From the NCBI GenBank assembly GCA_000002445.1, contig CP000070.1, forward strand, positions 576,001 to 640,000: DNA of 64,000 nucleotides, in the 5' to 3' direction. Below, piece after piece: positions 10,046 through 49,124 of this stretch; position 1 is the first letter of the stretch, and each line of letters starts with the position of its first letter. A program made the translations under genes and the position numbers. This DNA comes from Trypanosoma brucei. Taxonomy: Eukaryota. The notes under the pieces are model-generated. The model was not told where the DNA came from and did not search any database. It worked only from the letters and a program-made list of their open reading frames with translations.

Positions 10046-10086
<41 letters not shown>

Positions 10087-23447: not shown

Positions 23448-26400
23448 TCAGCGGTTACGGATAACCCATCTCTCCAACACACAACCACACGTAAATGAAG
23501 CAACATCAACCCGCATATTCGGAGTACCACGACGTTTTTCTAAATCATTTACCGGACGGGAAACAAAACGCTTCAGCAACCGTTTGAACCGCCTATCCTC
23601 CTCCTGCAATAAAAGAATCCGCTCATCCTCCTCCACGTCCATAAGACTACAGGAAAAAGAACCAGAAGCGTCAACTCCTTCTCCTGCGCGTAAGCCGTCA
23701 TTTTGCAAAGAAGTTCCAGCACCATATGTATTGAAGGCACCAAGTGCAAGTCCCCTCCTGTCACTATCAAATCCAGAATATAGCACATCACCAGCTTTAT
23801 CACCGAAGGTAGATTCTGCAGTTTCACCAGCACTAAAAGGTCGCAACGAGTCAACTCCTTCTCCTGCGCGTAAGCCGTCATTTTGCAAAGAAGTTCCAGC
23901 ACCATATGTATTGAAGGCACCAAGTGCAAGTCCCCTCCTCTCACTATCAAATCCAGAATATGGCACATCACCAGCTTTATCACCGAAGGTAGATTCCGTA
24001 CTTTCACCAGCACTAAAAGTTATCAACGTTTCAGCAAAAAAATACAACCCTTTAGGGTCCTGTGTTTCAGTTGTGGTGGCATTATCCATAGATATCGCAA
24101 GCATGTCATCAGTGAATTGATCATGGAGATCAAATGCACAATCATCATATGCACACACAATATCTTTGCGGGAGGCGTCCTCTTCACCTTCAATAGCAGA
24201 AGCACATAATGCAAACCGCTCACGGCATTCATCACCTTGCAATCCTTCACGGTCCTGTGTTTCAGTTGTGGTGACATTATCCATAGATATTGCAAGCATG
24301 TCATCAGTAAATTGATCATGGAGATCAAATGCACAATCATCATATGCACACACAATATCTTTGCGGGAGGCGTCCTCTTCACCTTCAATAGCAGAAGCAC
24401 ATAATGCAAACCGCTCACGGCATTCATCACCTTGCAATCCTTCACGGTCCTGTGTTTCAGTTGTGGTGACATTATCCATAGATATCGCAAGCATGTCATC
24501 AGTGAATTGATCATGGAGATCAAATGCACAATCATCATATGCACAGACAATATCTTTGCGGGAGGCGTCCTCTTCACCTTCAATAGCAGAAGCACATAAT
24601 GCAAACCGCTCACGGCATTCATCACCTTGCAATCCTTCACGGTCCTGTGTTTCAGTTGCGGTGACATTATCCATAGATATTGCAAGCATGTCATCAGTGA
24701 ATTGATCATGGAGATCAAATGCACAATCATCATATGCACACACAATATCTTTGCGGGAGGCGTCCTCTTCACCTTCAATAGCAGAAGCACATAATGCAAA
24801 CCGCTCACGGCATTCATCACCTTGCAATCCTTCACGGTCCTGTGTTTCAGTCGTGGTGACATTATCCATAGATATTGCAAGCATGTCATCAGTGAATTGA
24901 TCATGGAGATCAAATGCACAATCATCATATGCACACACAATATCTTTGCGGGAGGCGTCCTCTTCACCTTCAATAGCAGAAGCACATAATGCAAACCGCT
25001 CACGGCATTCATCACCTTGCAATCCTTCACGGTCCTGTGTTTCAGTTGTGGTGGCATTATCCATAGATATTGCAAGCATGTCATCAGTGAATTGATCATG
25101 GAGATCAAATGCACAATCAACTTTTGTAGATGTACTGCGTATACGTGTTTCGTTGGATTTGTTATTTGTTTCCGCTGAGTTATTTTTTGTGCTGTTTTCA
25201 TTGTCTTTATCCGATATGCCTTGATGATTGTTTTCTTTGATTTCGTGTGAATATTCGTCTTTTTTTTTCTCTTCTATTTTTTTTTGTATTTTTTCTTTAT
25301 TTGCATCTTCGTAAATTTCTTCTTTTTGTGTTTTATTTGTGTTTCGTAGTATGTTGAACATGGCGTTTACCTCGTTTTCCATTATCTTATCCCTCTCGTG
25401 CTCCTCCCTGCATATTATTCTTTGCTTGTAGTTTTTCCTTTGTTCATGTGTGTTTATGATCCCCTCTCGTTCTGTTGTCTTTATTTTTTCTGGCTCTTCA
25501 TCGTCTGCCTTTATGTGTCGTTTAGTTGGTGATTGCGTTGAAGCCATGTCCTGTGTTTCGTTGAGCGTCGTTGGTGTGGAGTGTGACACTTTGTCGTTTT
25601 TCCATAAAATATTTATGAGTTCGTATATTTCTTGATCCATCGCCTCATCCAAGTCGGAGTCCCAAGAGTTCCATAGAAGGAGACTCTCATTGGTGTTAGA
25701 TTTTCTAACTGGATATTTTTCAGTTGGATGTCCTTTCTCATCTATTTCCTCTTTCTTTATTCGTGCAGCGTTTAACATTTTTAGTGCCAATCTCATCCTT
25801 GTTTGTAATTTATGGATTGCAATGGCGTGTTCAAGATACATTCGTTGACGTTGTGCTGACTCTTGTATACGCAGCTTTTCAGTTTGTAGCGGATACGCGT
25901 AACTAATCCATTCACCTGGGTTTATTTCCACCGCTGGTTCCTCCTCGTCGCTACACTCGCCGCCATCAACCTTCCTCGTGAGGTTGCGCCTATCGACGCT
26001 TTCCTTGCTAACTATCAAGTTGCGTCTCTCCTCCTCCTTCTCGATTACAGCATGTACATTTTGTAGTGCTAACCACATCTTTTCTTCTGCATCTAACCGC
26101 TGCTGATAAGCTTTAACCTGAAGCACTCTATGTGTCATCATTTTTTGAATTAGAGCGGAATACGCTTCCATTTCTTCTATGTGGAGTTCATGCCGTGCAA
26201 TGTCCTCATCGTGCTGAACCCTCCAACATGGGGGGTCAGTTGATACTTCACGCCGGCTCCTCTCTACACTACCCTTCAGGTCATCTGTGACGATGTGAGC
26301 AATTATATCAGCAGCCGGAGAAAGCGCAGGACTCTTAGAATGGCCTCGCCCCCTGGGCACAGACACTGTGTCGCCGCTGAACAGAATAGAACCGAAGCGA

Positions 26401-26747
26401 CCGATAGAGGTTGTTGCACTCATTGGGTGAGCACGTGCTGCTTTGAACCCCTGTCCAACCTGCCCACCATAAGAACGATGGAAGGCGGAGTTAAGCCTAA
26501 TGGGAGAAGGAGGGTTCTTTTCATAATACCGCGATGCAGACCGCGTGTCAACATCTTCCCACATCCCCACAGTACTGGTGCGAGAGACGCGATCTTGTGG
26601 AGCGGAAGGGGGTGGGGATGACGTGAAGCTGGCTACGGTTTTGCTCTCCAAACTATCCCTTCTAGTCGCCGCACGCTTGAGGAGCCCTGCAGCCCGCGCT
26701 AAACCTCCACGGCGTCTCGATGGCGCATCCGTATTTCGCGATCTCAT
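23448..26747 (-). CDS. large repeat-containing protein (N-terminal coiled-coil region; 5.5 x 65-aa acidic Cys-containing repeats; 2 x 60-aa Gly/Ser-rich repeats)
   Basis: 3.3-kb ORF. ATG at 26747 (track start 26765 is TTG). Internal 195-nt and 180-nt tandem repeats are in frame. Artefactual ORFs are open in the other frames and strand across the array because the period is a multiple of 3. Confidence 0.7.
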   Translation of the reverse strand: MRSRNTDAPSRRRGGLARAAGLLKRAATRRDSLESKTVASFTSSPPPSAPQDRVSRTSTVGMWEDVDTRSASRYYEKNPPSPIRLNSAFHRSYGGQVGQGFKAARAHPMSATTSIGRFGSILFSGDTVSVPRGRGHSKSPALSPAADIIAHIVTDDLKGSVERSRREVSTDPPCWRVQHDEDIARHELHIEEMEAYSALIQKMMTHRVLQVKAYQQRLDAEEKMWLALQNVHAVIEKEEERRNLIVSKESVDRRNLTRKVDGGECSDEEEPAVEINPGEWISYAYPLQTEKLRIQESAQRQRMYLEHAIAIHKLQTRMRLALKMLNAARIKKEEIDEKGHPTEKYPVRKSNTNESLLLWNSWDSDLDEAMDQEIYELINILWKNDKVSHSTPTTLNETQDMASTQSPTKRHIKADDEEPEKIKTTEREGIINTHEQRKNYKQRIICREEHERDKIMENEVNAMFNILRNTNKTQKEEIYEDANKEKIQKKIEEKKKDEYSHEIKENNHQGISDKDNENSTKNNSAETNNKSNETRIRSTSTKVDCAFDLHDQFTDDMLAISMDNATTTETQDREGLQGDECRERFALCASAIEGEEDASRKDIVCAYDDCAFDLHDQFTDDMLAISMDNVTTTETQDREGLQGDECRERFALCASAIEGEEDASRKDIVCAYDDCAFDLHDQFTDDMLAISMDNVTATETQDREGLQGDECRERFALCASAIEGEEDASRKDIVCAYDDCAFDLHDQFTDDMLAISMDNVTTTETQDREGLQGDECRERFALCASAIEGEEDASRKDIVCAYDDCAFDLHDQFTDDMLAISMDNVTTTETQDREGLQGDECRERFALCASAIEGEEDASRKDIVCAYDDCAFDLHDQFTDDMLAISMDNATTTETQDPKGLYFFAETLITFSAGESTESTFGDKAGDVPYSGFDSERRGLALGAFNTYGAGTSLQNDGLRAGEGVDSLRPFSAGETAESTFGDKAGDVLYSGFDSDRRGLALGAFNTYGAGTSLQNDGLRAGEGVDASGSFSCSLMDVEEDERILLLQEEDRRFKRLLKRFVSRPVNDLEKRRGTPNMRVDVASFTCGCVLERWVIRNR
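23668..24030 (-). repeat. tandem repeat, period 180 bp, 2 copies (coding: FSAGE(S/T)(T/A)ESTFGDKAGDV(P/L)YSGFDS(E/D)RRGLALGAFNTYGAGTSLQNDGLRAGEGVD...)
   Basis: tcaactccttctcctgcgcgtaagccgtcattttgcaaagaagttccagcacc at 23671 and 23851. Near-identical over ~180 bp. Confidence 0.9.
24055..25129 (-). repeat. tandem repeat array, period 195 bp, ~5.5 copies, >97% identical (coding: DDCAFDLHDQFTDDMLAISMDNVTTTETQDREGLQGDECRERFALCASAIEGEEDASRKDIVCAY)
   Basis: The repeat anchor tcctgtgtttcag recurs at 24058, 24253, 24448, 24643, 24838 and 25033. Copies differ by only a few SNPs (gtggtggc/gtggtgac, atatcgc/atattgc, cacacaat/cagacaat). Confidence 0.95.
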
Positions 26748-28088
26748 CAGAAGATGCGCTGGCAACTAACGAAATGCGGTAGTTGTGGAAACACACCCAC
26801 GTACTTGGTAACCGTGATAGGCGTTCAGTCTTGTGCAGATGAGTGACTAATATATATATATTAGACAGGAAACTTGAAGGTAGATGTGCTCCTGGCACCT
26901 TCACACTGAGGGCAACTCAAATGACTAAATTCTTCTTTGTCACCGCTGCTGCTTCCTGTGAATACCTGGTGTCTTAAGGCAACCAGCGTTGCACGTAAGT
27001 GAAACTTCTTCCAATTGCTTTCCGTGTCTCTTTACAGCGATATTGCGTCGCTCGTTATAATACCTAAAGTCACCTCTGCACCACGGAATAACACTCACCA
27101 ACGCATAAGACGTTGATAAGGGAGGGGGAAAGCCTGGCACTTGTCGCACTTTCACGCCGCAGCGTATTGACCTGTGTCCGCAACAGGTGGGTTCGGCTCC
27201 TATTAAGCGCTCAAAGAAGAACTTCCAGGTAAACGAACGCGTCTACAAAAGTGCGCACGAAGACGGTGATACTGTCACGAAAAAAACAGAAAGAGAGAAG
27301 ATTCACACCTCCACTCCACCAAAAATGAGTGGAGAATTCAAACTCCCTTTTACTTAATGCCCTTTTGGTGTGTTTTATACCACCACAGAAGCAGCACCAG
27401 TCACAGGTTCGTGCGAATTTGCCCGGCCCCAACTGCCTTCCGTCGTGCACACACTACCAGGGGGTTAGACAAACTCCGTCAACCTAAAAACAAAAACAAA
27501 ACAAGTGCCAATAAATGTGTATATATGTATAACTAATAACACAATCACACTTAACCTCCCCCTCCCTGGCTATCGGCCAAATTTTCTTATTTCTCTTTTT
27601 TCTTACCTACCTGGAATGTGGGTTAAGAGTTTTTATTACAAAATATTCTTTCTTTTATTTATCCCTGTTTGTTGTCAGGTTTTTAATCCGCTGTACCCCG
27701 TTATCAGCCCACCTGTCGTCCTTTCCTAAATCCCTTTCCTCACTTAATTCAGAGAAACAGCTGCACGGAAAGTGCTTTGAATAAAATGATCCAGTAAATA
27801 CGTCCCACCAATAAGCCTTTGTTGAGATACAGCACCTAATGTACATTTAAAAAAAAACAGAAAAGAAAGGCGAGGAAAAAAGAAAACGAACATCCAAACC
27901 AAATTCAATATCAACAAGCAGACATAACACGGAATAAGATGTCAAAACAGCAGGGACTCCCCCCCTCATACCAACCAAAAAAAATGGAGTGCTTTCACAA
28001 GCAATAAAAAAAAAGAAAGAAAGAACATAACTAAACTTAGTGTTCTTGATCGAAGGGAAGGCAACACAATACCACAAAATGATGCATC

Positions 28089-28612
28089 GGCAGGCGTGAA
28101 ACAAGACCAAACAAGTCATGGATTGCATCCCATTCAACTCTCCATGCTTCACTACTTGAGGGGAATGAAACGAGAAGAGTGAGTCGCACCAAAACCGGGG
28201 CGGCCGTGAGCGACAGGTTTGTACGTCAGCGAGAACTCTCCAAGATAATGGCCAATCATCTCACCCTTGATCTCCACCGCATTAAACTGGCGACCATTGT
28301 AGATTCCCACAACAGAACCCACCATCTCAGGCGTGATCACAACATCACGAAGGTGTGTCTTCACAGCTTTCGGTTTCTCACCGGCCTTCACGTTCTTCTT
28401 CGCCTCACGCAGGCGCTTCAAAAGCACAGGGGCGCGACGGTCCGCGTGGCGGTTCATGCGTCTACGGGCGCGAGCATGCACAAGTGCCTTGAACTCCTCC
28501 TCAGTGAGCGCAAGTAGTGGGTCGATTTCGTGGCCACGGTACGTGAATTTGTGGAAGGTACGCTCCTTCTTCAGCTGTTCGTACCGCTCCTGTGTAATGT
28601 TCGACGCCATCG
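28089..28612 (-). repeat. dispersed direct duplication unit A (RPS15 CDS + ~60 nt 3' flank), identical to 35233-35756
   Basis: Nucleotide identity runs from ~60 nt downstream of the stop codon (acaagaccaaacaagtcatggattgc...) through the CDS to 3 nt past the ATG, then ends abruptly. Confidence 0.9.
28152..28610 (-). CDS. RPS15: 40S ribosomal protein S15 (uS19), copy 1
   Basis: 152 aa. The C-terminal [22 protein letters not shown] and central [35 protein letters not shown] are hallmark uS19/S15 sequence. ATG start confirmed. Confidence 0.95.
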
Positions 28613-28642
28613 CCTTCTCTCCGTCTACACGATATTAATTAT

Positions 28643-28697
28643 AAGGAAAAGGGAGGGAAAAGACATAAAAGCGGAAAGCCACCAGGAAGGGAAAAGC
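28643..28697 (-). promoter_or_regulatory. polypyrimidine tract / trans-splice acceptor region upstream of RPS15 copy 1
   Basis: Plus-strand purine run (aaggaaaagggagggaaaagacataaaagcggaaagccaccaggaagggaaaagcc), i.e. a pyrimidine tract on the coding strand 30-90 nt 5' of the ATG. This is the typical kinetoplastid SL-addition signal. Inferred, not mapped. Confidence 0.45.
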
Positions 28698-29376
28698 CGT
28701 TACTCCAACAAACGCTTAGGTGTGTTAACACCACTTTTGGAGACGAACACCTTATCACAAGTGACGGCCTCCTCTTCGTTCGTACATATGAATATATAAA
28801 TATATATCAAACTGTTACAATCAGGGGGGAGAGAAACGCGAGGCCGGTGGACCGCAAGTCATCTGAAGAAGTGATCATATCCAAAGCATCGTAAAAAGTG
28901 AACACCTTTCCGCGTTCTGTATCGGAACATCTACATCAACAAACAGCTATAATGAAGACCAAACAGAGAATATATTCAGCCACAAGTTTCCTCGTTTTGA
29001 TTCTCCGAAAATTGGTAACCGCGTCATGGAAAATGTAGCGAAGGATCATCTGCCATGATCTGGCACCAACCCGATCAGCTAGTTGCGCATATCTCAGGTG
29101 GATGTGATCCCGTTGGGTGGGGTTATACACGTACAAATACACATGCGTGCTTATATTTCATACGCATGTATTAACAAAGTCGAGACCCACAGCTGGAGGA
29201 GGGGGGGCTGTGATATTTTTCGTTGGCAATCCCCTCCTTCTTGCTTGTGCTCTTTCCACCTCACCAGCAGCCTCTACCGAGCTTCTTCAGGCCCCCTTGT
29301 CTCACACGTCCTTTTATTTCTTAGCACAACATGATCGCAACCTCTCTTCAAGAGAGGAAAAATTCTTTAAAGGAAG

Positions 29377-32300
29377 CTAATCTTCTCTTTCCGTTTTCGC
29401 ATCTCCGTCAGAAAAGACGCTGTTGGGTATCGAGATGACCGTCTGGCGTAAAGCAGCACAAAAATCGTACCACTCCACAACGTCCTTGTCCGACTGCACT
29501 ACGAGACTTAGTGGCACACAGTCATTTGTAGGGTCCCGAAGACTCGATGTCGGTGGTGACGGTACGTTACTTTCATTCGCCCGTTGTTTTCCTTTGCTAA
29601 TACTTTTAGATCGGCTCCTTCTCCCCTTCACACCTTCACTGTTTTCTCGTTGGTTTTTGTTCTCTCTCGGTGACGGGTGGTTTGTTTTCACGGCGGAAAC
29701 CGTTGGTGAAGAGACCAACTTTGATCCCGATGCATCAATGGAAAAGTGAATCGAGCTTCCAATGTGTTTAACCCGTGTCAGAACATCTGTGAAGACTGCC
29801 TCCAAAGAAATATCTTTGAAAGGTTGAATGAAGGCCGTCCGCTCCAGCCTTAACATATCATACGACTCTGATAGATTGAGGGGTTGCGGATTCTCTTTGT
29901 TCGGTGAAGAATCTCTTTGCTTATCCGCCTTGCTTCGCATGAAAGGGCAGGAGCGCTGAAGATAGGTTTCTGATGGTTCATATTTGTTCTCGTCGAATGC
30001 CTGCATCGCAGCGGTTGAGGTTACGATCGGGAGCAAGAAAACACCCGCGACCACCTGGCTCTCAACTATGAAGGGACCAAGAATACTTTCAATAATATCA
30101 TATACGTATTCATGAGATCTAATGACGAGGCGGCGCCAAAAGCGAGTGAGAACCGACGCGCCTACGCGGTAATGACTACTATTCGGCTCTACTTTCACAA
30201 TGCCTTGTCCTTGGTAGGATGGCCGATGACGCACCTTTCGCTCGTCGGCTCGCGGCGCGGCTTCGTCGGCTGATACATCCTTGAAATTTATCCTCCCACC
30301 AACAACCGGCACGTCACTCTCCCTAAATGTCTCAGCCACCGCAAGAACGACGCAGCGCCCAACCTGCGCATCCATATCGCCCACCACCTTGAGAACCGAT
30401 GACACAAGTTTGTTGTATGTAAACAAGTTGCTTCCGTCTGTGTCATATTTTAATATCCCTGCCTCCGCGTTCCGTAATACTCGTTCCATCAAACCGAACA
30501 ACCCAAGTGGTAGCCGGCCATCCAACACATTGACGAAGAGATAACACAATGGTTGTGTATCCTTGTGCCGCCGAGCAGCGTACCAGAGGTTGTAGCTTAC
30601 TTTGGCAAACTCCATTTCAACTGCGGCGGCGGAGTTATTAGATGGATACGTGGGAGCCACGGTCCCTGACTGGAATAAGTGCTGATGAGGCGACCCGTAG
30701 GTATACGTCCGAAGAAAATTGTTGAGGAAATAGGTAACCACGTAACCAAAAGGAACATTTTCTACGCGTTCCTCCACTTCTGACACTGTTGCATCGAGTC
30801 GAACAAGGTAATTTTCAATACGTTCGAACAATTGGTACACCCGAGGTATGAACATTTTAGAGTCCCGTTTGAAGCGGCACGCCAACCGTAATGCTTCAAA
30901 GCGAGAAAAGAAGTCGTACAAAAGGGAAGAAACATCCTCACCGCTCCAGTTAAGATTAGGAATATCGCAGTCAACGTTGGTGCGCAAAAAGTGGGGAATT
31001 TCGTTCCACATAGAATTTGGGAACACTGGAATGAGTCCCCAAACACCCTCATCCCCAACGGTTTTTAAGAGGTTCTCATCATCAATCCATTCGAGTACGT
31101 TCGCCAGACGACGCAGCGCAAGGACGGAGGAATTTAACTGGTGCTTAAGGTTCATTGCAACCGCTGTGAGTTCTGCAACAATTCCACACGTGCTCTTCTT
31201 TAAATCGACACCCAGATCCGTTTGAATGGCGAAGGGCAAGTTACGCGGTCGTGGCGTCAGAGGTACGTCATCGCCCTCAACCTCGGTGTTCATGAAGCGC
31301 TTCTCATGAATGTATTTTTCAAGGTCAACAATCTGTCCCTGAAGCGACGCTACTTGCAGACGAAGATTATTGTTACTGGTACGCAGACCATTAATTTGAA
31401 GTCGGTACGCGGAGCAATCATCAAAAGCATTATTCAGCAGCTCACGCTGAAGAGTAAGACGCGAATTGCTCATTTCCTTACGTGAGGCCTCGATAAACTG
31501 AGGTGATACCTGCTCACTCAGTTTTTTCACGCCATCCTCATTGGAGTTGATCGCATTTGATGTCTTAGGTTTGTTGTACAGAAAGAGCGCATCGTCTATC
31601 TTGGGCACGTCAATGCGATGCTTTCTAAGGAGCGAACTCAAGTCCTCCACCTGGTTGACGAGTCCCTGGTTAGTTTTAAACACCAGTGTCACAAGCCTTT
31701 TCAGCATGTTGAACTCATCCTCCTTCCGCTCGCAATCATTCAATCGCGTCATCACAATCTCTTTCGCCTTCGATAGTTCGTCATCACGCTGCTTTCGCAA
31801 CGTAAACACCTCCTCGCGTAGTTGTTTTGCCACCGCCTCTGTTTTACGGTTTTCGCGGATAAGTTGAAGTACTTTTCCCTCGAAAAACTTTTCATATTTT
31901 TTATACACTGTTTCCTCCAACCGTTTCACCTCTGATGTGTGCGACTCCTGCATTGCCTCTAGCGCTGAGGCGAGTTCCTTTACATAACGCCGAGTTATCA
32001 GCATCACACCAGACAATGAAGGATACACACGACCCATATCGTCTAATGCCTTCGCCATGTTTATGGACCGCTGCGGCTCCGGCACATGTCTAGCGCAAGT
32101 GGTGCACATGCTAGTTTCAATTTCCTGTACTCGCTTCTTAGTGCTTGTTGTACCCTCCGTAGGAGTGGCGTCGGTGTTCCATACCTTATGCTCCAAAGCT
32201 CCCCTCCCACTTTTCAATAACGGCATGCAAACTGGTTGTTCAGATGGTTTCGTAGGTGTAGCCAAGTGAGCGTCACGCGTCGCCTTTCTTTTCTTGTTTG

Positions 32301-32436
32301 GGGTATCGAATCGCAGAGGTATTTGTGGCACGAAACTCATGGTTCGAGTTAGCGATCGTGCATTCGCCAGTGTGGATTCTAGAGAGCAACTCTGTAGTAC
32401 GCTGCGGCTAAGAGTGGTTTTAGCGTCATCGGACAT
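29377..32436 (-). CDS. hypothetical protein, 1019 aa, N-terminal coiled-coil region
   Basis: Uninterrupted 3-kb ORF with an ATG start. Residues ~150-400 are heptad-like (KRLEETVYKKYEKFFEGKVLQLIRENRKTEAVAKQLREEVFTLRKQRDDE..., LRLQVASLQGQIVDLEKYIHEK). A large globular C-terminal region has no motif I recognise. Confidence 0.65.
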   Translation of the reverse strand: MSDDAKTTLSRSVLQSCSLESTLANARSLTRTMSFVPQIPLRFDTPNKKRKATRDAHLATPTKPSEQPVCMPLLKSGRGALEHKVWNTDATPTEGTTSTKKRVQEIETSMCTTCARHVPEPQRSINMAKALDDMGRVYPSLSGVMLITRRYVKELASALEAMQESHTSEVKRLEETVYKKYEKFFEGKVLQLIRENRKTEAVAKQLREEVFTLRKQRDDELSKAKEIVMTRLNDCERKEDEFNMLKRLVTLVFKTNQGLVNQVEDLSSLLRKHRIDVPKIDDALFLYNKPKTSNAINSNEDGVKKLSEQVSPQFIEASRKEMSNSRLTLQRELLNNAFDDCSAYRLQINGLRTSNNNLRLQVASLQGQIVDLEKYIHEKRFMNTEVEGDDVPLTPRPRNLPFAIQTDLGVDLKKSTCGIVAELTAVAMNLKHQLNSSVLALRRLANVLEWIDDENLLKTVGDEGVWGLIPVFPNSMWNEIPHFLRTNVDCDIPNLNWSGEDVSSLLYDFFSRFEALRLACRFKRDSKMFIPRVYQLFERIENYLVRLDATVSEVEERVENVPFGYVVTYFLNNFLRTYTYGSPHQHLFQSGTVAPTYPSNNSAAAVEMEFAKVSYNLWYAARRHKDTQPLCYLFVNVLDGRLPLGLFGLMERVLRNAEAGILKYDTDGSNLFTYNKLVSSVLKVVGDMDAQVGRCVVLAVAETFRESDVPVVGGRINFKDVSADEAAPRADERKVRHRPSYQGQGIVKVEPNSSHYRVGASVLTRFWRRLVIRSHEYVYDIIESILGPFIVESQVVAGVFLLPIVTSTAAMQAFDENKYEPSETYLQRSCPFMRSKADKQRDSSPNKENPQPLNLSESYDMLRLERTAFIQPFKDISLEAVFTDVLTRVKHIGSSIHFSIDASGSKLVSSPTVSAVKTNHPSPRENKNQRENSEGVKGRRSRSKSISKGKQRANESNVPSPPTSSLRDPTNDCVPLSLVVQSDKDVVEWYDFCAALRQTVISIPNSVFSDGDAKTERED

Positions 32437-33924
32437 GCTGTCGTTTTTTGACAGTGACCACCGTTTTTATTGTATTGTCTCGACCACGACTCTTTGGTCC
32501 TATATTTACCTTCGCTCCGTGGCACTTCTACTGTTGATCGAAACCCCAATTGTCGGTCACTCCCTCACCACTTCGCTTCTTTGTATAACAATAATAATAA
32601 TAATGAAGGTAGGAGGTGAGGCCCTTGCTGTTAAAATTGGCCCCCTCCCTCCCTTGTTCCGTATACACGTTTCACAGGATGCGTACAAGGATAAAGAAGA
32701 AACAAATAGTGGGAAACAACTAATTTATGTACTTAAAGTTACGAACACCACAGTAGCAGAATTAAGAAAGAGGAATCGTAACACGCCGCAGTTCCCCGAC
32801 CAGTAAAAAAAAGGGGGCGTGTAAGTCGCGTTAGCGGAGGCCGCAGTACTGCTACCAAACAACTACACGAGGAAACGAAGTAAACGGAGCGAGTGACTAT
32901 CTGTATCCATGCGTAGTGGAGTATAGACATGATTAGCCCAAATTTCCCAACTACATTCCAACAAACTTCCCTCCCTTTCCTTTATAGCCACCAATAAGCT
33001 CTTCGTGGAAAGAACGAATCCTGGCAGAAAGCAGCTAAAACGGCTTTATATATATATATGTATATATGTAAGAGGACTCCTATTTTACTTTCTTTTTGAG
33101 GAAAAAGTATTCTCTGCAGCGCACCTTTCTTTCGATCTGTCACGCACACACAAGTCCTTCTCCCACGCCCTCTTTTAACCCACTTTCAACAGGTGAGAAA
33201 AAAGAAGTTAAAAAGAAGAGGTAAAAAAAAAATGCATCGGAGTGTGCGCACGAAGGCTCCTCATATGCACGTCATGCAAACATAACAATGCGCATTGTGG
33301 GCTGCCACTCTTCCTCAATACTTCAAAAACAAGCCCCTCCCCGAGTTTAAAGGTAGTCGTCACCGACTGTTGGCCTCCACACCGTTATTATTAAGTAACT
33401 TGTGTGACTCGACAACGCGCTGTCATCACAAATACACGCACGAATGACGAAGTGAAAAAAAATGAAGGAAAGAAGGGGGTAAGTGTAAACAAAACACAAT
33501 AATAATCTTATTCTTTATATTTTTTGTTTATTGTTTCACTTTTTGTTCGGCTCCTCCCTCAACTCGAATGGCAGCATCCACCATGAAATCCCTCATGTTC
33601 GCACGAGGATATTCTCCATCTACATGTAAGGCATTACACGCAACACACCACCACCGCTAGTGAGACGATCGATTTCTCGTGGAAAATAAAGAAGTCAACA
33701 GGTTGATTGTGCTCACCACCCCCTCCCTTTTCCTTTCTTTCAGTAAACCACACTCCACCCTATTACTCATACTCTTTTCAATCTCAGACATGCTCCACCT
33801 CCGCTTCAGTACATACGTCTCACGGTCTATCCCTAAACTGGATCAGCTTATCGCTACGGCTGCGCCTGCCAGGTAAACTCGTGAGCGATTGCACGCCTCT
33901 CCGTAAAAAGATGTTAAAAGAATC

Positions 33925-34851
33925 TCAGATAGGAGAAGTAGAGGTAGAAGGAGAAGCAGCGGCAGCCACAGCTACAGCCGGAGTAGCGGGTTGCACAGGA
34001 GTACAGAACGGGGGATCCTTCAACCACAACTTCAAACGGACGGCGTCGGAATGATCAAGGTAGTAGCGCGGCAGAAATTTAGACTTTGCGAATCCCAAAT
34101 TCAAGTACAATGAAAGAGCACGTTCGTTGTTTGTCGGAGTTTCCAGGTAAACTTCATCACACCCCTTTTCCCTCATGAGCTCAATAGTGAGCGTAACCAG
34201 CCGGCTCCCAAGCCGGAAACCACGGAACTCGGGGATAACGGCGAACATAGCTACGTAGCCGCGCAGCGGACTGTCAATGTGCTTGCGCGACACACGAGAA
34301 ACTACAGCCCCTACACGTTTGCCTTTCACGGACGCGTCAGGCACGTCCTCACCGTCGTAACCGTATGCAACAATTGTTAAATCAGGCCATCCGAAAATAA
34401 AATACTCATATGTGAAGCTGCTGTAAGGCTCTGTCAACTCCTTTGTGAACAGTTGTACGATAAAATTCATCACCTCTTCGTCACCATCGAATTGTTCATA
34501 GCGAATATACTTGTTGTCTGAAACCTTTTGCCAGGCCTTCTCCTCCTCTTTCAATGGCACGAGGGCTTTTGCCACCTCGGCATCACGTATTGCCTTCTCG
34601 TGCATCAGCCGCTCCGCTAGGAGCGACATCCGTAGACGATGCTCATCGACAAGCGGTTGAGCTGCAGCCACGGGTTTCGTAAGCACTTCCTCCATTTGCT
34701 TCTCCTCCAGGGCCATGGCCTGCTTCCGAGTCATTCCCTCCTTCGAGTTTTTCGACGGTACGGAAGTGCCCTCAATTGCAGCCACTAAAGCATCAATATC
34801 CACATCCTTGACGTTGTTCTTCGTCGCATTCTTTTTCCCTTTTTTTGGCAT
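33925..34851 (-). CDS. NAA30: N-alpha-acetyltransferase 30 (NatC catalytic subunit, Mak3-like), GNAT fold, with Lys-rich/coiled-coil N-terminal extension
   Basis: The C-terminal 170 aa matches the Mak3/NAA30 pattern: IRYEQF...EPYSSFTYEYFIFGWPDLTIVAY...VGAVVSRV...RGYVAMFAVIPEFRGFRLGSRLV...GCDEVYLETPTNNERALSLYLNLGF.K.KFLPRYYLDHSDAVRLKLWL. ATG start. Confidence 0.8.
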   Translation of the reverse strand: MPKKGKKNATKNNVKDVDIDALVAAIEGTSVPSKNSKEGMTRKQAMALEEKQMEEVLTKPVAAAQPLVDEHRLRMSLLAERLMHEKAIRDAEVAKALVPLKEEEKAWQKVSDNKYIRYEQFDGDEEVMNFIVQLFTKELTEPYSSFTYEYFIFGWPDLTIVAYGYDGEDVPDASVKGKRVGAVVSRVSRKHIDSPLRGYVAMFAVIPEFRGFRLGSRLVTLTIELMREKGCDEVYLETPTNNERALSLYLNLGFAKSKFLPRYYLDHSDAVRLKLWLKDPPFCTPVQPATPAVAVAAAASPSTSTSPI

Positions 34852-35232
34852 CTTATTCCACCTCCCTTGCGCCCTTTTTTTTTCTTTTCCTGACTTTCCC
34901 CCTTTTTAGATTACTTTGTGATTTGACGGTACTTCTCGTTAACGTCAACCGCCTCGGTCACGGGAGTCAAACTTAATACCCTCCTTTTTAATCGACGATT
35001 CTCACGTTATTTTATATTGTTTGTTATTGTAGAACCAATATGTGGAAAGTTAAAGCCACGAAACAAGCAAAAAACAGTTACAAATGCAACCGAACAGACA
35101 AACAAATCGAAGGCCAAATGAAAAGAGTAACATTTGAAAGAAAAGAGAAGACAGCAAAAGATAAACGAGGGGTGAAACCCAACAAGTTGCGCATTAAAAA
35201 AGGGAAGAAACAAAAGCACCGTTCACAGAAAT

Positions 35233-35756
35233 GAAAATAAAAACAAGACCAAACAAGTCATGGATTGCATCCCATTCAACTCTCCATGCTTCACTACTTG
35301 AGGGGAATGAAACGAGAAGAGTGAGTCGCACCAAAACCGGGGCGGCCGTGAGCGACAGGTTTGTACGTCAGCGAGAACTCTCCAAGATAATGGCCAATCA
35401 TCTCACCCTTGATCTCCACCGCATTAAACTGGCGACCATTGTAGATTCCCACAACAGAACCCACCATCTCAGGCGTGATCACAACATCACGAAGGTGTGT
35501 CTTCACAGCTTTCGGTTTCTCACCGGCCTTCACGTTCTTCTTCGCCTCACGCAGGCGCTTCAAAAGCACAGGGGCGCGACGGTCCGCGTGGCGGTTCATG
35601 CGTCTACGGGCGCGAGCATGCACAAGTGCCTTGAACTCCTCCTCAGTGAGCGCAAGTAGTGGGTCGATTTCGTGGCCACGGTACGTGAATTTGTGGAAGG
35701 TACGCTCCTTCTTCAGCTGTTCGTACCGCTCCTGTGTAATGTTCGACGCCATCGCT
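35233..35756 (-). repeat. dispersed direct duplication unit B (RPS15 CDS + 3' flank), identical to 28089-28612
   Basis: See unit A. The 5' flanks diverge completely immediately upstream of the ATG (cgccttctctccg vs cgcttcttgccta). Confidence 0.9.
35294..35752 (-). CDS. RPS15: 40S ribosomal protein S15 (uS19), copy 2
   Basis: Nucleotide-identical to copy 1 over the CDS. The track ORF extends 20 codons upstream (to 35812), but the conserved MASNITQ ATG at 35752 matches copy 1, and sequence 5' of it is unrelated. Confidence 0.95.
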
Positions 35757-36381
35757 TCTTGCCTAGGATGACTAAAATAAACGTTGTAGTAGTGGAGGAA
35801 ACATATATACATAAAGAGACGGTTATATATGTTTCAATGCACAGGAGGGAAAATAGATATTAAAGCGGGAGGACGTATCGTACCACCACGTAAAAGAAGC
35901 CGTCACTAAAACTCTGTGGATACTGCCATCTGGAACTCGATATGTGCTTTGCCATCCTTTATTTGCAACGAAGGCAGGTGCAAGTATGCATCTCAATATC
36001 TTCGTGTTTACTTCCCATTCCGTGCATTATCATTTAGTTCTAACTAATGTTACCCACAACACATCAATTAGCTTCAAAACACTGCTGCATGGAGTTAGGG
36101 TCCCCATCACTCTGTTTTCTTGCAGTGCTTTCAACTCACCTGGTGCGCACACCTCTTCGCACAACATCACCGAATGATGAGAACCTCTGATGTATCGTGT
36201 CTCACGTAGGTGTGTTACACAGAGGCATGGGTATGTGCTACCAGCCTCACCGCATGTCGTTTCAACACACGCAGATGCGCAGTGAACAACACAAGGCATA
36301 CCCAGCACCCAAAGATTCCAGCGGCAATGCAGTATTCGTATCGCGGATACGGGGAAAAAATGTTAAGCAATGGGTATCACT

Positions 36382-37866: not shown

Positions 37867-40722
37867 TTACTTTATAAGCTGCCGAAGAATAAGCGAAACC
37901 TTGCTCGATTTTTTGATGCTATCCATCGCCTGCAACCTGATCGACTTCGTCGCATTATGTAGATCGATACCATTCACTCCATCCACCTGCCATGAAATCT
38001 GTCCGGCATCATCTGGAACCAATGTTTTCATAAACGGATGAGTCTTTAGTGCCGCTGAGACAGGAGGAAGACGAGTCAACACAAGCTTATCTCCTCCATG
38101 TGTCATGCTGATATCCCAGGACGTTTTTAGGTCAGGGCGGCGCAACTCCATGTTCATACCGTCGAAGTGATCGAGGGTAACAGCGTTCTCAAACGTCAGT
38201 GGAGGAGCTTCCTTCAGTTCAGCCATGACCTCAGGAGTCATGGCGACACTGCCCTTTGGGGCCACTGCTATGCGCACCGCAGCTGCATCACCACCGCCGG
38301 GAGAGGTTGACGAAGAAGATTCTTTTTTGCTTTCGCTCTTCCTGGATACTACCACAGCCGCATCGGAGCGCGGTTTTACGTCTACAAGTGGCTTGTCTAC
38401 CACACCTTGAGCCTCCGCTGCCTCCTTCAACGATGTACCAGCACCACTGTCTGCTTTCTTTCCACCTTCGGGAGTCTCCTCTTTAGCCTCTCCATCCTTA
38501 GATTCACTATCCTTCGCCTTATTGCTTTTCCTCCCCCTTGTACGTTTCTCCTCGCCCTCTTCCTTGTCTTTTCCCTTCTTTGTCTTTCCACCCTTTTTCT
38601 CCTTTCCACTCTTCTTCGCAGCCTTTGACAGTTTCTTTCCCGCTTTCTTCCGGGCATCCTCCTTGTCCTTCTTCTTCTTTTCAGAGGCCTTTTTCTCAGC
38701 TTTCCTTTTCTTGGTTGCCTCACCCTTTTCCTCACCTTCCGTTGTCCCAACCTTTTTGGTCTCCTTCGTCGCTACCGTCGAGGATCTCACCTCCCCCGAA
38801 GTTTCTGCGGTTCTGTCATCGGTTTCTGATGAATGGAGCGTCTTCCGGCGGCGGCCCCGCTTTTTGGGTTCCGTTTTCTCGCTACCTTCATGTTGTGTCT
38901 CCTCATCTCCCTGCTCCCGTGTTCCCTGTCCTTCTGGCAGCGGCCTATCCGAGTCGGTACCATGCCGGTGTTGTGAATCCAGGTTTCCAGCATTCTTGAT
39001 TTCGTCATCCGCAGCCGAACGCATAACGTTGCTCTTTGACCCCCCTCTCTCTGCGAGTTCAGCACCCTCCAACTTCTCGATTTCCATGGCCTTCGGTTGC
39101 CGCCGTGAGTTCCCCACCCCCACCGCAACTGATCCGTCCTTGGAATCAGAATTTACAGTGGCAACGGTTTGCAATCTCAAAATAAGGAAAAGGGAGCTGC
39201 GCATAACGTCATCAAGGAAAGAATTGTTTTTCGGCTCGCATCCATTGACTTGGGCAACGTGCAGATTACCGAGGTGGGTGTTAATGAACTCACTCGCCGC
39301 ATTTGAAAGCGAAATATTCGGGGAAACACTATCTAGTATCAACTGGTTTTCACCATTCGCAACCAATTTGAGCTTCCAATCTACGGAAACAGATGGCCGC
39401 TTTAGAATAAGGCACGCTTCCTGCCCAGAAGCACCTTCCCCCCCTTGCGGTATAATGTTAAACGAAACCTCCTGAGGATCATGCATGCCCGAAACACCTG
39501 CAACAAGCAACGAGACTTTTGTTACCTTACTCTTTAGTATGTTTTGTAACTTCTCCAGACGCGACACTCGGACTTCCTCACTTACATCACCATCGGCCTC
39601 TTGTTCCCCAGGTTCACGAATAGTTACCCCATTTATATTATAAATCGGTAATCCACCCTCGCTTAGTTGGAGGGCATGGAAGAGTTCACCACCGGTTGAT
39701 GTGGCAGTCCGCAGTGTATTTTCCACTCCAATCAGTTTGCTCGCCATATTGATCAATAAACCCCATTTAAACGACGAGGCAGACCGCTCAATTGTGATCT
39801 TTCCGGAAGAGGGGTCGTAGTAAGTTACAGTAACAGGAGGATCGCTTATATCTTGCGGGGGGAATGGAAGGGAAGGCGTGATACGGGTGGTTTCCAGGTT
39901 CAGTCGATCCGGTTGTACCATCAACATCCATCCCAAAAGACTGTAGAATGACTGGACCACCAAATTCGCCGTAGTCCCATCCGCCGCAGCAGTTTCACGA
40001 GGTATCGAGTTGCTGCCGTTAGAGGTCAACGGTGCACTTATGGAATCGAATGCTGTTACCAGCGCAGCACGGAACTGAAGAAAGTCCTGTGTGTTCTTTT
40101 TGGTAGCCGCAAGAGCCTGAAGTTCCACATCTGTCCGTCGGGAATTCGCTGGTGAGGCTTCTTCTGCAGCGAGGCGCGCCTCCAGCCGCTGGCACACGAC
40201 TCCATAGTTATCCCGCACCACACCTGTGCAGAGTACAGCGGTAAGTGAAACCACAGCCTTAGCACATGCACTCCGTTCGGCAAAAATCTTTTCTAGACGT
40301 GGCATAAACACCTCAGCTTCTTCATCCGAGCCACAAGGTACGAGTACCTCGCCGTCGCTTCCGACCGCACAGGAAGCGAAGGCGAGCATAACGCTCTTTT
40401 GCACCAGATAGAGGGCTTCTTTCGGAGTTAACCTCGAGTCAAACTCCAGTATTCGGCGGAGCTCACGAAGCACCACACCTTGTACGCGCGACACCTCGGA
40501 GCGAAAAACTCGGTCGTGCTCAGGGTTAATCACCACTTGTTTCAGTGTTTTGTCATATTTCATAAATGGTGTCAATAGACGGGTTTTTAGACCAACAATG
40601 GAATTAACAAATGAAACATCCGGTGATGTAGCATCGGATGTCTGAGAGCCAGAGTGGTCAGCCTTCCTTGAAGCAGCGGATTCCTTCCGATCCTGCTTAG
40701 CGCCGCCACGAGGCCGATACAT
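37867..40722 (-). CDS. hypothetical protein (~950 aa) with ~150-aa extremely Lys/Glu-rich low-complexity tract (nuclear/nucleolar-type)
   Basis: ATG at 40722 (track start 40797 is GTG). Structured N-terminal 600 aa. Then the KKRGRRRK...KKRKAEKKASEKKKKDKEDARKKAGKKLSKAAKKSGKEKKGGKTKKGKDKEEGEEKRTRGRKSNKAKD tract. A C-terminal ~180-aa domain follows. Confidence 0.65.
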   Translation of the reverse strand: MYRPRGGAKQDRKESAASRKADHSGSQTSDATSPDVSFVNSIVGLKTRLLTPFMKYDKTLKQVVINPEHDRVFRSEVSRVQGVVLRELRRILEFDSRLTPKEALYLVQKSVMLAFASCAVGSDGEVLVPCGSDEEAEVFMPRLEKIFAERSACAKAVVSLTAVLCTGVVRDNYGVVCQRLEARLAAEEASPANSRRTDVELQALAATKKNTQDFLQFRAALVTAFDSISAPLTSNGSNSIPRETAAADGTTANLVVQSFYSLLGWMLMVQPDRLNLETTRITPSLPFPPQDISDPPVTVTYYDPSSGKITIERSASSFKWGLLINMASKLIGVENTLRTATSTGGELFHALQLSEGGLPIYNINGVTIREPGEQEADGDVSEEVRVSRLEKLQNILKSKVTKVSLLVAGVSGMHDPQEVSFNIIPQGGEGASGQEACLILKRPSVSVDWKLKLVANGENQLILDSVSPNISLSNAASEFINTHLGNLHVAQVNGCEPKNNSFLDDVMRSSLFLILRLQTVATVNSDSKDGSVAVGVGNSRRQPKAMEIEKLEGAELAERGGSKSNVMRSAADDEIKNAGNLDSQHRHGTDSDRPLPEGQGTREQGDEETQHEGSEKTEPKKRGRRRKTLHSSETDDRTAETSGEVRSSTVATKETKKVGTTEGEEKGEATKKRKAEKKASEKKKKDKEDARKKAGKKLSKAAKKSGKEKKGGKTKKGKDKEEGEEKRTRGRKSNKAKDSESKDGEAKEETPEGGKKADSGAGTSLKEAAEAQGVVDKPLVDVKPRSDAAVVVSRKSESKKESSSSTSPGGGDAAAVRIAVAPKGSVAMTPEVMAELKEAPPLTFENAVTLDHFDGMNMELRRPDLKTSWDISMTHGGDKLVLTRLPPVSAALKTHPFMKTLVPDDAGQISWQVDGVNGIDLHNATKSIRLQAMDSIKKSSKVSLILRQLIK

Positions 40723-47679: not shown

Positions 47680-47683
<4 letters not shown>

Positions 47684-47710
<27 letters not shown>
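47684..47710. repeat. (TA)13 microsatellite
   Basis: Direct read of the sequence. Lies within the 4.5-kb coding desert. Confidence 0.95.
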
Positions 47711-47715
<5 letters not shown>

Positions 47716-49098: not shown

Positions 49099-49124
49099 AT
49101 ATATATATATATATATATATATAT
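49099..49124. repeat. (TA)13 microsatellite
   Basis: Direct read. Lies within the coding desert. Confidence 0.95.

What the first reader, a model, noticed from the sequence alone, without database searches (positions are those of the whole stretch)
28089..35756. Two nucleotide-identical RPS15 copies bracket two unrelated genes; conversion tract ends exactly at the ATG
The two uS19/RPS15 genes (28152-28610 and 35294-35752) are identical at every position I compared. The identity covers the CDS plus ~60 nt of 3' flank, then stops within 3 nt upstream of the ATG. The two 5' UTR/splice-acceptor regions are completely unrelated. The copies are not adjacent: a 1019-aa hypothetical gene and the NAA30 acetyltransferase gene sit between them. 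Such sharp identity boundaries point to ongoing gene conversion confined to the CDS and proximal 3' UTR. This fits a conserved 3' UTR regulatory element shared by both mRNAs, with independent 5' processing signals. The intervening genes may be hitch-hiking in a segmental duplication that later decayed, or the RPS15 copies may have been homogenised across them.
Basis: seen in the sequence. Interest (0 to 1): 0.55.

Follow-up and report, generated by a model that had tools for sequence, protein, structure and literature searches.

The report
RPS15 duplicates kept identical by conversion
Two copies of a ribosomal protein gene, 7 kb apart on Trypanosoma brucei chromosome 7, have been kept letter-for-letter identical by repeated copying of one onto the other since before trypanosomes and Leishmania split; this is a clean but ordinary example of a known process.

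Summary
Window 28099-28613 and 35241-35755 are one 515-nt direct repeat, 100% identical. It consists of 3 nt before the ATG, the 459-nt uS19/RPS15 CDS and 53 nt of 3' UTR. The flanks are unrelated. The window is T. brucei TREU927 chr7 576001-640000, and the genes are Tb927.7.2340 and Tb927.7.2370.

The order RPS15 - NAA30-like acetyltransferase - large ORF - RPS15 is conserved in T. vivax, T. cruzi, T. theileri, L. major and Leptomonas. Within each species the two copies differ by 0-2 nt. Between species they differ by 30-98 nt, about 60 of the changed codons being synonymous. Every pair clusters by species with bootstrap 100. This is concerted evolution by non-allelic gene conversion limited to the homologous block.

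Copy-specific flanks are old. A downstream-copy 5' UTR motif and an upstream-copy 3' motif are each conserved across Trypanosoma species. Published poly(A) sites lie outside the shared 3' block, at +70 and +166 nt.

Three bodonid-like contigs lack the upstream copy. There is no trace of a segmental duplication.

The phenomenon is already described for trypanosomatid and fungal ribosomal protein paralogues, so interest is low.

The parts
35241..35755 (-). Identical tract, upstream copy (U; Tb927.7.2370): 3 nt 5' + CDS + 53 nt 3'
   Evidence: 515-nt run, 100% identical to 28099-28613
28099..28613 (-). Identical tract, downstream copy (D; Tb927.7.2340)
35294..35752 (-). uS19/RPS15 CDS, copy U, 152 aa. 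The 172-aa ORF reaching 35812 is a mis-annotated start.
   Evidence: Pfam PF00203. Kolev 2010 Table S1 places the transcript 5' end at chr7 611770 (window 35770), inside the annotated ORF 611812-611294.
28152..28610 (-). uS19/RPS15 CDS, copy D, 152 aa
   Evidence: Pfam PF00203 E=2.5e-30. Tb927.7.2340 is named RPS15 in PMC9585242.
35753..35770 (-). 5' UTR of copy U, 18 nt as mapped. The AG acceptor is at 35773-35772, 1 nt from the mapped end.
   Evidence: Kolev 2010 Table S1; sequence
28611..28624 (-). Predicted 5' UTR of copy D (ACGGAGAGAAGGCG) after the AG at 28626-28625. This D-specific leader is conserved in T. cruzi, T. grayi and T. theileri D copies only.
   Evidence: the 9-mer AGACGGAGA is shared by 4 species and reached by 0/20000 shuffles. 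The splice site itself is inferred, not mapped.
35224..35293 (-). 3' UTR of copy U to the predominant poly(A) site: 70 nt (mean 95 nt). The first 53 nt are the shared block.
   Evidence: Kolev 2010 Table S13: predominant PAS 611224. Coordinate offset 576000 checked on four further genes.2340.2360.2400 and .2420.
27986..28151 (-). 3' UTR of copy D to the predominant poly(A) site: 166 nt. The first 53 nt are the shared block.
   Evidence: Kolev 2010 Table S13: predominant PAS 603986, dispersion 5.9
35267..35274 (-). TGGGATGC motif in the shared 3' block, copy U
   Evidence: Also present in both copies of T. cruzi and T. theileri; ATGGGATTC in T. grayi. 57/20000 shuffles.
28125..28132 (-). TGGGATGC motif in the shared 3' block, copy D
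35230..35239 (-). U-specific 3' UTR 10-mer TATTTTCATT, starting 2 nt past the end of the shared block
   Evidence: Found at +55, +54 and +44 after the stop in the U copies of T. brucei, T. vivax and T. theileri. Absent from all D flanks. 2/5000 shuffles.
33925..34851 (-). Intervening gene 1: GNAT / NAA30-like N-acetyltransferase, 308 aa (Tb927.7.2360)
   Evidence: Pfam PF00583; source names of homologues; PAS consistent with Table S13
29377..32436 (-). Intervening gene 2: conserved kinetoplastid hypothetical protein, 1019 aa
   Evidence: No Pfam hit. Syntenic homologues in T. vivax, L. major, Phytomonas and bodonid-like contigs.

Best explanation
The two RPS15 genes are an ancient non-adjacent duplicate inside one polycistronic transcription unit. 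The pair was present in the common ancestor of Trypanosoma and the Leishmaniinae. Recurrent non-allelic (intrachromosomal) gene conversion keeps them identical.

Mechanism, as inferred. A break or gap in one copy is repaired by homologous recombination using the other copy, 7.1 kb away, as template, without crossover. Strand invasion and heteroduplex need homology, so a tract can only start and end inside the block the copies still share. That block is the CDS plus whatever short flank was carried along by earlier tracts. Purifying selection on the protein, together with the homogenisation itself, preserves the core. The edges are converted least often and erode. The only paralogue differences seen in any species are synonymous changes at CDS positions 6 and 9.

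The flanks stay copy-specific. They were probably never homologous, and each carries its own constrained RNA-processing signals: a D-specific 5' leader, and a U-specific 3' element just ahead of the U poly(A) site and the acetyltransferase gene's splice signals.

A crossover between these direct repeats would delete the acetyltransferase and the 1019-aa gene. Presumably only non-crossover products persist.

The net effect is two mRNAs encoding the same protein with different UTRs. This doubles the dose of a very abundant transcript in a genome without gene-specific promoters.
For: Shown:
- A 515-nt perfect repeat with unrelated flanks.
- The order RPS15-NAT-largeORF-RPS15 is conserved in T. 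vivax, T. cruzi (3 strains), T. theileri, L. major and Leptomonas pyrrhocoris.
- Within-species paralogue differences are 0, 0, 0, 2, 0 and 1 nt. Between species the range is 30-98 nt, with 52-63 codons changed synonymously between Trypanosoma species or against L. major (24 between L. major and Leptomonas).
- In an NJ tree every U/D pair is monophyletic with bootstrap 100.
- The shared non-coding 3' block is different sequence in each species but the same in both copies. Non-coding sequence therefore also evolves in concert.
- The block ends vary by lineage: 1-17 nt upstream and 5-53 nt downstream. This is expected for homology-limited tracts rather than a fixed site.
- Copy-specific flank motifs are conserved across species: the D 5' leader in 4 species (0/20000 shuffles) and the U 3' 10-mer in 3 species (2/5000 shuffles).
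- Both copies are processed at distinct sites. Together they are listed at about 203 RNAs per cell.
- T. brucei homologous recombination depends strictly on substrate length and is impeded by mismatches (PMC1904282).

Inferred: that the template is genomic DNA, that crossover products are selected against, and that the edges erode.
Against: No conversion event has been observed directly. Zero differences in 515 nt does not date the last event: the flanks of TREU927 and T. equiperdum differ by only 0.1-0.7%.

The data cannot tell a genomic-DNA donor from a cDNA donor.

Jackson 2007 (PMC1855330) reported that T. brucei duplicates separated by unrelated genes and carrying unique UTRs tend to escape concerted evolution. 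This pair behaves differently from that trend.

Essentiality of the two intervening genes was not checked.
Confidence: 0.88

Rival explanations
1. The homogenisation is real, but the donor is cDNA made from the abundant mature mRNA, as proposed for fungal ribosomal protein paralogues. The converted block then cannot exceed the limits of the mature mRNA.
For: In all six species the shared block stays within the mRNA limits mapped in T. brucei. Upstream it reaches 1-17 nt, against 5' UTRs of 14 nt (predicted) and 18 nt (mapped). Downstream it reaches 5-53 nt, against 3' UTRs of 70 and 166 nt. The transcript is very abundant. Mullis et al. argue for cDNA donors in fungi from CDS-only homogenisation (PMC6993855).
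Against: The same pattern is expected from homology-limited genomic conversion. There is no spliced-leader remnant in the window and no poly(A) remnant. Trypanosomatid genes lack introns, so the fungal test (introns versus synonymous sites) cannot be applied. In Leptomonas the shared block includes the TAG that contains the likely AG acceptor, which would not be in an mRNA, although that splice site is unmapped.
Confidence: 0.1
2. There is no conversion. Identity reflects very strong purifying selection and codon-usage selection on a highly expressed gene.
For: RPS15 is highly expressed. Its GC3 of 0.63 is above that of its neighbours, 0.50-0.55.
Against: Orthologues differ at 52-63 codons synonymously between Trypanosoma species or against L. 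major, so synonymous sites are free to change, yet paralogues differ at 0-2. The 53-nt non-coding 3' block is also identical within T. brucei and unrelated to the blocks of other species.
Confidence: 0.01
3. The duplication is recent and arose independently in each lineage, or one copy is an assembly artefact.
For: Perfect identity is what a very young duplicate or a mis-assembly would show. A short-read T. equiperdum scaffold is indeed mis-joined at this repeat.
Against: The positions relative to the same neighbours are identical in six species. Copy-specific flank motifs are orthologously conserved. Independent assemblies of three T. cruzi strains (L005, L006, L007) each carry both copies. 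All four junctions are present in T. equiperdum. Each copy has its own mapped SL or poly(A) sites.
Confidence: 0.01

Closest known systems
Leishmania ribosomal protein paralogues with identical CDS and divergent UTRs, e.g. RPS16 LmjF.26.0880/0890 (Borges et al. 2024, PMC11098316)
   Same: Trypanosomatid ribosomal protein gene in two copies on one chromosome, with identical coding sequence and unrelated UTRs. The paper states that most Leishmania RP genes are like this.
   Different: The RPS16 copies are adjacent; the RPS15 copies bracket two unrelated genes. The phrase 'gene conversion' does not occur in that paper's main text (0 occurrences). Differential expression of the RPS15 copies was not tested here.
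Concerted evolution of tandem gene arrays in T. brucei (Jackson 2007, PMC1855330)
   Same: Same organism. Conspecific duplicates cluster by species, and this is attributed to frequent gene conversion. Homoeology was defined by conserved flanking gene order, as done here.
   Different: This pair is not a head-to-tail array with shared intergenic repeats. Jackson linked physical separation by unrelated genes and unique UTRs with escape from homogenisation, whereas here homogenisation is complete despite both. The term 'ribosomal protein' does not occur in that paper's main text.
Parallel concerted evolution of ribosomal protein paralogues in fungi (Mullis et al. 2020, PMC6993855)
   Same: RP duplicates are retained for long periods with repeated gene conversion that homogenises only the CDS while the flanks diverge. 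The rationale is dosage of highly expressed genes.
   Different: The fungal paralogues are mostly on different chromosomes (whole-genome duplication or retroposition), and their introns allow the inference of cDNA donors. Here the copies are 7 kb apart in one polycistron, have no introns, and the donor type is undetermined.

Membership tests
Concerted evolution by non-allelic gene conversion | The duplication predates the speciations compared (conserved position and synteny) | tested here: met
   RPS15-NAT-largeORF-RPS15 in T. brucei, T. vivax, T. cruzi, T. theileri, L. major and Leptomonas
Concerted evolution by non-allelic gene conversion | Paralogues within a species are more alike than orthologues between species, including at synonymous sites | tested here: met
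   0-2 nt against 30-98 nt; 52-63 synonymous codon changes between Trypanosoma species or against L. major; species-wise clades with bootstrap 100
Concerted evolution by non-allelic gene conversion | Abrupt end of identity with non-homologous flanks | tested here: met
   The 515-nt perfect run ends within 1 nt on both sides; the flanks equal shuffled controls
Concerted evolution by non-allelic gene conversion | Direct demonstration of sequence transfer between copies, and its dependence on recombination proteins | not testable with these tools
   Needs marked-allele experiments or population long reads
uS19 / eukaryotic RPS15 ribosomal protein | Ribosomal_S19 domain above Pfam's gathering score; orthology with annotated RPS15 | tested here: met
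   PF00203, 104.6 bits against a cut-off of 27; sources name it 40S ribosomal protein S15
Trypanosomatid RP paralogues with identical CDS and divergent UTRs (Borges 2024) | At least 2 RP gene copies, identical CDS, UTRs not alignable | tested here: met
Trypanosomatid RP paralogues with identical CDS and divergent UTRs (Borges 2024) | Paralogue-specific expression level or regulation | not tested
   The published abundance table lumps the two genes; needs UTR-specific reads or tagging
Tandem gene array (Jackson 2007 sense) | Head-to-tail adjacent copies sharing a repeated intergenic unit | tested here: not met
   Two unrelated genes and 6.6 kb of unique sequence lie between the tracts; the intergenic sequences are unrelated
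Decayed segmental duplication | Residual paralogy of the neighbouring genes or flanks on the two sides | tested here: not met
   BLASTP of U-side against D-side neighbours gives nothing below E=0.5. Bodonid-like contigs have NAT and the large ORF with a single RPS15.
Retroposed (mRNA-derived) gene copy | Spliced-leader remnant 5', poly(A) remnant 3', homology ending at the mRNA ends | tested here: not met
   No SL-like sequence with up to 3 mismatches in the window. The homology ends at -3 and +53, not at the mapped mRNA ends of -18 and +70/+166. After this much time, remnants could have decayed.
Structured or curated RNA element in the shared 3' block | Rfam match, or folding energy beyond shuffled controls | tested here: not met
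   No Rfam hit in the window. Fold z-scores between -1.2 and +0.8 in four species.

The most novel reading that the evidence does not exclude
Conversion between the two RPS15 copies is templated by cDNA of the very abundant mature mRNA rather than by the sister locus. If so, in an intron-less, polycistronically transcribed genome the homogenised block is bounded by the mRNA processing sites. The short conserved UGGGAUGC in the shared 3' UTR would then be a real cis-element carried along in both mRNAs. In all six species the shared block does stay inside the mRNA limits mapped in T. brucei, so this is not excluded.
Probability: 0.1. Interest if true: 0.5.

Novelty: new member of a known kind. 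Interest (0 to 1): 0.2.

Why it matters
The finding matters little beyond documentation. It is a very clean instance of long-lived concerted evolution. Two gene copies separated by two genes conserved across kinetoplastids have remained identical in six trypanosomatid species, while their UTRs have stayed copy-specific since before the Trypanosoma radiation.

There are three practical consequences:
- Short-read assemblies mis-join or gap at this 515-nt repeat. This is seen in T. equiperdum and probably in Phytomonas.
- CDS reads cannot be assigned to a copy, so expression tables lump the two genes.
- Knock-out, RNAi or tagging designs must use the unique UTRs.

The pair could also serve as a small natural test bed for conversion-tract limits and donor type in trypanosomes.

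Tried and rejected
- **Flank orthology by local alignment.** I compared U-U and D-D against U-D across species on 60-300-nt flanks. The result was noisy and dominated by poly-pyrimidine tracts, so I replaced it with shared k-mer tests with shuffling.
- **RNA structure in the shared 3' block.** No fold was better than shuffles and there was no Rfam family anywhere in the window. I dropped the idea of a structured element.
- **Retroposition origin.** There is no spliced-leader remnant.
- **Segmental duplication.** The neighbours show no paralogy.
- **Mapped splice site for copy D.** The stored copy of Kolev Table S12 is truncated. The Nilsson 2010 supplements do not list the genes, and no Siegel 2010 supplements are held. 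The D splice site therefore remains a prediction.
- **Phytomonas Hart1 locus (L012).** It has runs of N at 8926-9504 and 16294-16948, where the two copies would be expected, so it is uninformative.
- **T. congolense.** The only contig on record is 2 kb, and the 90% clusters merge most trypanosomatid RPS15 proteins. I therefore examined no close salivarian relative other than T. equiperdum.
- **TGGGATGC within the window.** It occurs 3 times against 1.7 expected. Its only support is the cross-species recurrence.


Full report
**1. The observation**

A repeat search over 26-38 kb found one long direct repeat with spacing 7142. Comparing every position i with i+7142 gives a single uninterrupted identical run, 28099-28613 = 35241-35755, of 515 nt. 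All long ORFs of the window are on the minus strand.

On that strand the run has three parts:
- GCG immediately before the ATG
- the 459-nt ORF (28152-28610 and 35294-35752; 152 aa; Pfam Ribosomal_S19, 104.6 bits)
- 53 nt after the stop

A gapped alignment of 1.3 kb around each copy shows no similarity outside the run. Flank identity equals that of shuffled sequence.

Between the copies lie a 1019-aa ORF without Pfam domains and a 308-aa GNAT acetyltransferase. Database sources name homologues of the latter N-alpha-acetyltransferase 30 or peptide alpha-N-acetyltransferase.

**2. Where the window comes from**

The acetyltransferase and RPS15 proteins are identical to proteins on a 2,205,233-bp contig and to T. 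equiperdum proteins.

Kolev et al. 2010 (PMC2936537) list Tb927.7.2370, '40S ribosomal protein S15', with annotated ORF 611812-611294 on Tb927_07_v4. That is the 172-aa ORF at window 35812-35294, so the offset is 576000.

The same offset reproduces the 3' UTR lengths published for Tb927.7.2340.2360.2400 and .2420 from the stop codons in the window. The window is therefore T. brucei TREU927 chromosome 7, 576001-640000. The copies are Tb927.7.2340 (downstream in the direction of transcription, 'D') and Tb927.7.2370 (upstream, 'U').

**3. The repeat is not an artefact**

A T. equiperdum OVI scaffold (L001) matches the window at 99.2-99.9%. It is mis-ordered exactly at the repeat: U upstream flank - RPS15 - D downstream flank, then N gaps, then the piece from the U 3' block through the two intervening genes into the D 5' end. 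This is what a collapsed 515-nt repeat does to a short-read assembly. It still shows all four unique junctions. The collapsed tract is identical to the TREU927 tract.

Independent assemblies of five other species carry two copies. RNA-seq maps distinct processing sites for each copy (below).

**4. The comparative test**

I used the single-copy acetyltransferase as an anchor and fetched the syntenic locus from other trypanosomatids. The order RPS15 - acetyltransferase - large ORF - RPS15 is present in:
- T. vivax
- T. cruzi (three strains)
- T. theileri
- L. major chromosome 22
- Leptomonas pyrrhocoris

A partial T. grayi contig has the acetyltransferase, the large ORF and the D copy.

| Comparison | Nucleotide differences in the CDS |
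|---|---|
| U vs D, T. brucei | 0 |
| U vs D, T. vivax | 0 |
| U vs D, T. cruzi | 0 |
| U vs D, T. theileri | 2 (CDS positions 6 and 9) |
| U vs D, L. major | 0 |
| U vs D, Leptomonas | 1 (CDS position 9) |
| Between species | 30-98 |

All within-species differences are synonymous. As an example of between-species divergence, T. brucei and T. cruzi differ at 78 of 456 nt, with 60 codons changed synonymously and 11 with amino-acid changes.

In a neighbour-joining tree every U/D pair is monophyletic with 100% bootstrap. The duplication is older than the Trypanosoma-Leishmaniinae split, yet synonymous sites are homogenised within each lineage. This excludes selection alone and recent independent duplication. 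It is the defining signature of concerted evolution by gene conversion.

Three differences across six pairs give a rough mean paralogue divergence below 1% of the inter-species synonymous divergence. Conversion must therefore be frequent relative to mutation (inference).

**5. The tract boundaries**

The ungapped shared block extends as follows:

| Species | nt upstream of the ATG | nt downstream of the stop |
|---|---|---|
| T. brucei | 3 | 53 |
| T. vivax | 5 | 6 |
| T. cruzi | 3 | 9 (about 34 allowing one 1-nt indel) |
| T. theileri | 1 | 14 |
| L. major | 5 (13 of 14 with one mismatch) | 5 |
| Leptomonas | 17 | 32 |

The additional figures for T. cruzi and L. major come. The boundaries hover around the CDS ends but differ by lineage, so there is no fixed stop signal at the ATG.

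The shared 3' blocks are unrelated between species. T. brucei has TGAAGCATGGAGAGTTGAATGGGATGC..., whereas T. cruzi has AGGGGAAAA(A)GGAGAGGAGAGGAGAAAAGTGGGAT... Each is the same in both copies of its own species. Non-coding sequence is therefore co-converted too, rather than conserved.

The flanks beyond the block are copy-specific and old:
- The D copies of T. brucei, T. cruzi, T. grayi and T. theileri all have AG|ACGGAGA(G)AAG... directly before the ATG. No U copy has it. A 9-mer shared by four species was reached in 0 of 20000 shuffles.
- The U copies of T. brucei, T. vivax and T. theileri share TATTTTCATT at +55, +54 and +44 after the stop. It is absent from 200 nt after every D copy, and 2 of 5000 shuffles reach this. 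In T. brucei it starts 2 nt after the shared block ends.

The CDS has therefore been exchanged continually while the adjacent UTR segments have been inherited vertically since before the Trypanosoma radiation.

**6. The mRNAs**

Kolev Table S1 places the 5' end of the Tb927.7.2370 transcript at 611770 (window 35770). This gives an 18-nt 5' UTR, 1 nt from the AG at 35773-35772, and shows that the 172-aa annotation uses a wrong start.

Table S13 gives the predominant poly(A) sites:

| Copy | Predominant poly(A) site (chr7) | Window coordinate | 3' UTR |
|---|---|---|---|
| U (Tb927.7.2370) | 611224 | 35224 | 70 nt (mean 95 nt) |
| D (Tb927.7.2340) | 603986 | 27986 | 166 nt |

Both sites lie beyond the shared 53 nt, in unique sequence. 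The two mRNAs therefore do not share a poly(A) site inside the block.

The D splice site is not in the stored tables. I predict it at the conserved AG, which would give a 14-nt leader. The two genes together are listed at about 203 RNAs per cell.

**7. Is the shared 3' block a regulatory element?**

Only TGGGATGC recurs: in both copies of T. brucei, T. cruzi and T. theileri, with ATGGGATTC in T. grayi. That level of sharing was reached in 57 of 20000 shuffles. Within the window the motif is not enriched, with 3 matches against 1.7 expected.

None of the blocks folds better than shuffled sequence, and Rfam finds nothing in the window. A short sequence motif is possible. A 53-nt conserved element is not supported.

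**8. Origin of the duplicate**

Three metagenomic or SRA contigs (L014, L015, L017) carry the same locus. Their RPS15 is 85-91% identical to that of Neobodo designis, where present. Their genes are dense and lie on one strand.

In all three, a protein kinase gene sits directly upstream of the acetyltransferase, with 370-380 nt between the two genes in L015 and L017 and no RPS15 anywhere upstream of the acetyltransferase. L014 and L015 have a single RPS15 downstream of the large ORF, at the D position.

The outgroup genes upstream (RabGAP-TBC, a 476-aa protein and the kinase) have homologues in the window in the same order, at 58876-59949, 54518-55210 and 50310-51626.

Relative to these relatives, trypanosomatids have a block inserted between the kinase and the acetyltransferase. 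In the window it consists of:
- a dynamin-like gene, 43930-45912
- a tRNA-binding-domain gene, 41417-42694
- a DUF7760 gene, 37867-40797
- RPS15-U

The D position is therefore ancestral. The U copy is either a trypanosomatid gain or a loss in the bodonid-like lineages.

The neighbours on the two sides show no paralogy, so there is no evidence that the intervening genes were part of a duplicated segment. No spliced-leader remnant is present.

**9. Mechanism**

The best-supported model is recurrent, non-crossover homologous-recombination repair between the two copies. Tracts are confined to the block of homology.

T. brucei recombination depends strictly on substrate length and is impeded by mismatches (PMC1904282). 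A 515-nt perfect block is a good substrate, and the unrelated flanks are not.

The rare differences at CDS positions 6 and 9 fit lower conversion frequency at the tract edge. The conserved copy-specific UTR motifs suggest that selection on RNA-processing signals also opposes spread of the tract. The U copy has only 442 nt before the acetyltransferase ATG.

A crossover between the direct repeats would delete both intervening genes, which are conserved across kinetoplastids, and should be selected against (inference).

A cDNA donor, as proposed for fungal RP paralogues (PMC6993855), is not excluded. The block never exceeds the mapped mRNA limits. Nothing specifically favours a cDNA donor either.

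**10. Comparison with what is known**

- Identical CDS with divergent UTRs is reported as the rule for Leishmania RP paralogues (PMC11098316).
- Concerted evolution through gene conversion is documented for T. brucei tandem arrays (PMC1855330).
- CDS-limited, long-lasting conversion of RP paralogues is documented in fungi.

The RPS15 pair is not a tandem array in Jackson's sense, and it runs against his trend that separated duplicates with unique UTRs escape homogenisation. It adds no new principle. I found no paper describing this pair specifically. It is a new, well-resolved member of a known kind.

**Verdict**

Interest is low (0.2).

Noticed in passing
window 35294-35812 (minus): The longest ORF of the upstream RPS15 copy (172 aa) starts 60 nt upstream of the true ATG. 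Kolev 2010 Table S1 lists it as a mis-annotated start because the spliced-leader site (window 35770) lies inside that ORF.
   Followed up: yes
window 23655-25124 (inside ORF 23448-26765, minus, DUF1663): The gene downstream of RPS15-D contains tandem repeats whose unit lengths are multiples of 3: 195 nt x 5.5 copies (98% matches) and 180 nt x 1.9 copies. Its orthologues in T. cruzi, T. theileri and T. equiperdum are called as fragments, or at about half the length, in the repeat-bearing region.
   Followed up: partly
window ~45900-50240: A 4.3-kb AT-rich stretch (20-37% GC against about 47% elsewhere) lies between the kinase gene (Tb927.7.2420; published mean 3' UTR about 2 kb, dispersion 1183) and the dynamin-like gene. 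It coincides with the upstream edge of the gene block that trypanosomatids have and the bodonid-like contigs lack. It has no tandem repeats and no Rfam hit.
   Followed up: partly
L001 (T. equiperdum OVI scaffold CZPT02000156.1) 9994-13498: The public scaffold is mis-joined at the RPS15 repeat. The U upstream flank runs through RPS15 into the D downstream flank. The acetyltransferase and 1019-aa genes are appended after N gaps, which gives a false gene order.
   Followed up: yes
L012 (Phytomonas sp. Hart1 HF955222.1) 8926-9504 and 16294-16948: Runs of N sit where the two RPS15 copies would be expected: just upstream of the acetyltransferase and just downstream of the large ORF. This probably reflects the same repeat breaking that assembly.
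   Followed up: partly
L005/L006 (T. cruzi) 1-8633: In T. cruzi a tandem histone H2A array (at least 8 copies, about 1.2-kb period) lies immediately upstream of RPS15-U. T. brucei, T. vivax and T. theileri have the DUF7760 gene there. This is a lineage-specific change of the upstream neighbour, and it did not disturb the RPS15 pair.
   Followed up: no
L011 (Leptomonas pyrrhocoris) 8743-8759 and 17041-17057; L009 (L. major) upstream of 8737 and 17067: In the Leishmaniinae the shared block reaches further upstream: 17 nt including a TAG in Leptomonas, and 13 of 14 nt in L. major. Their leaders resemble the Trypanosoma U-type leader (AG|TCATCC...). The 5' boundary at the ATG is therefore a Trypanosoma state, not a universal one.
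   Followed up: partly
window 50310-59949 against L014, L015 and L017: The gene order RabGAP-TBC - 476-aa protein - kinase - (...) - acetyltransferase - large ORF - RPS15 is conserved between T. brucei and the bodonid-like metagenomic contigs. This is deep synteny within Kinetoplastea.
   Followed up: partly
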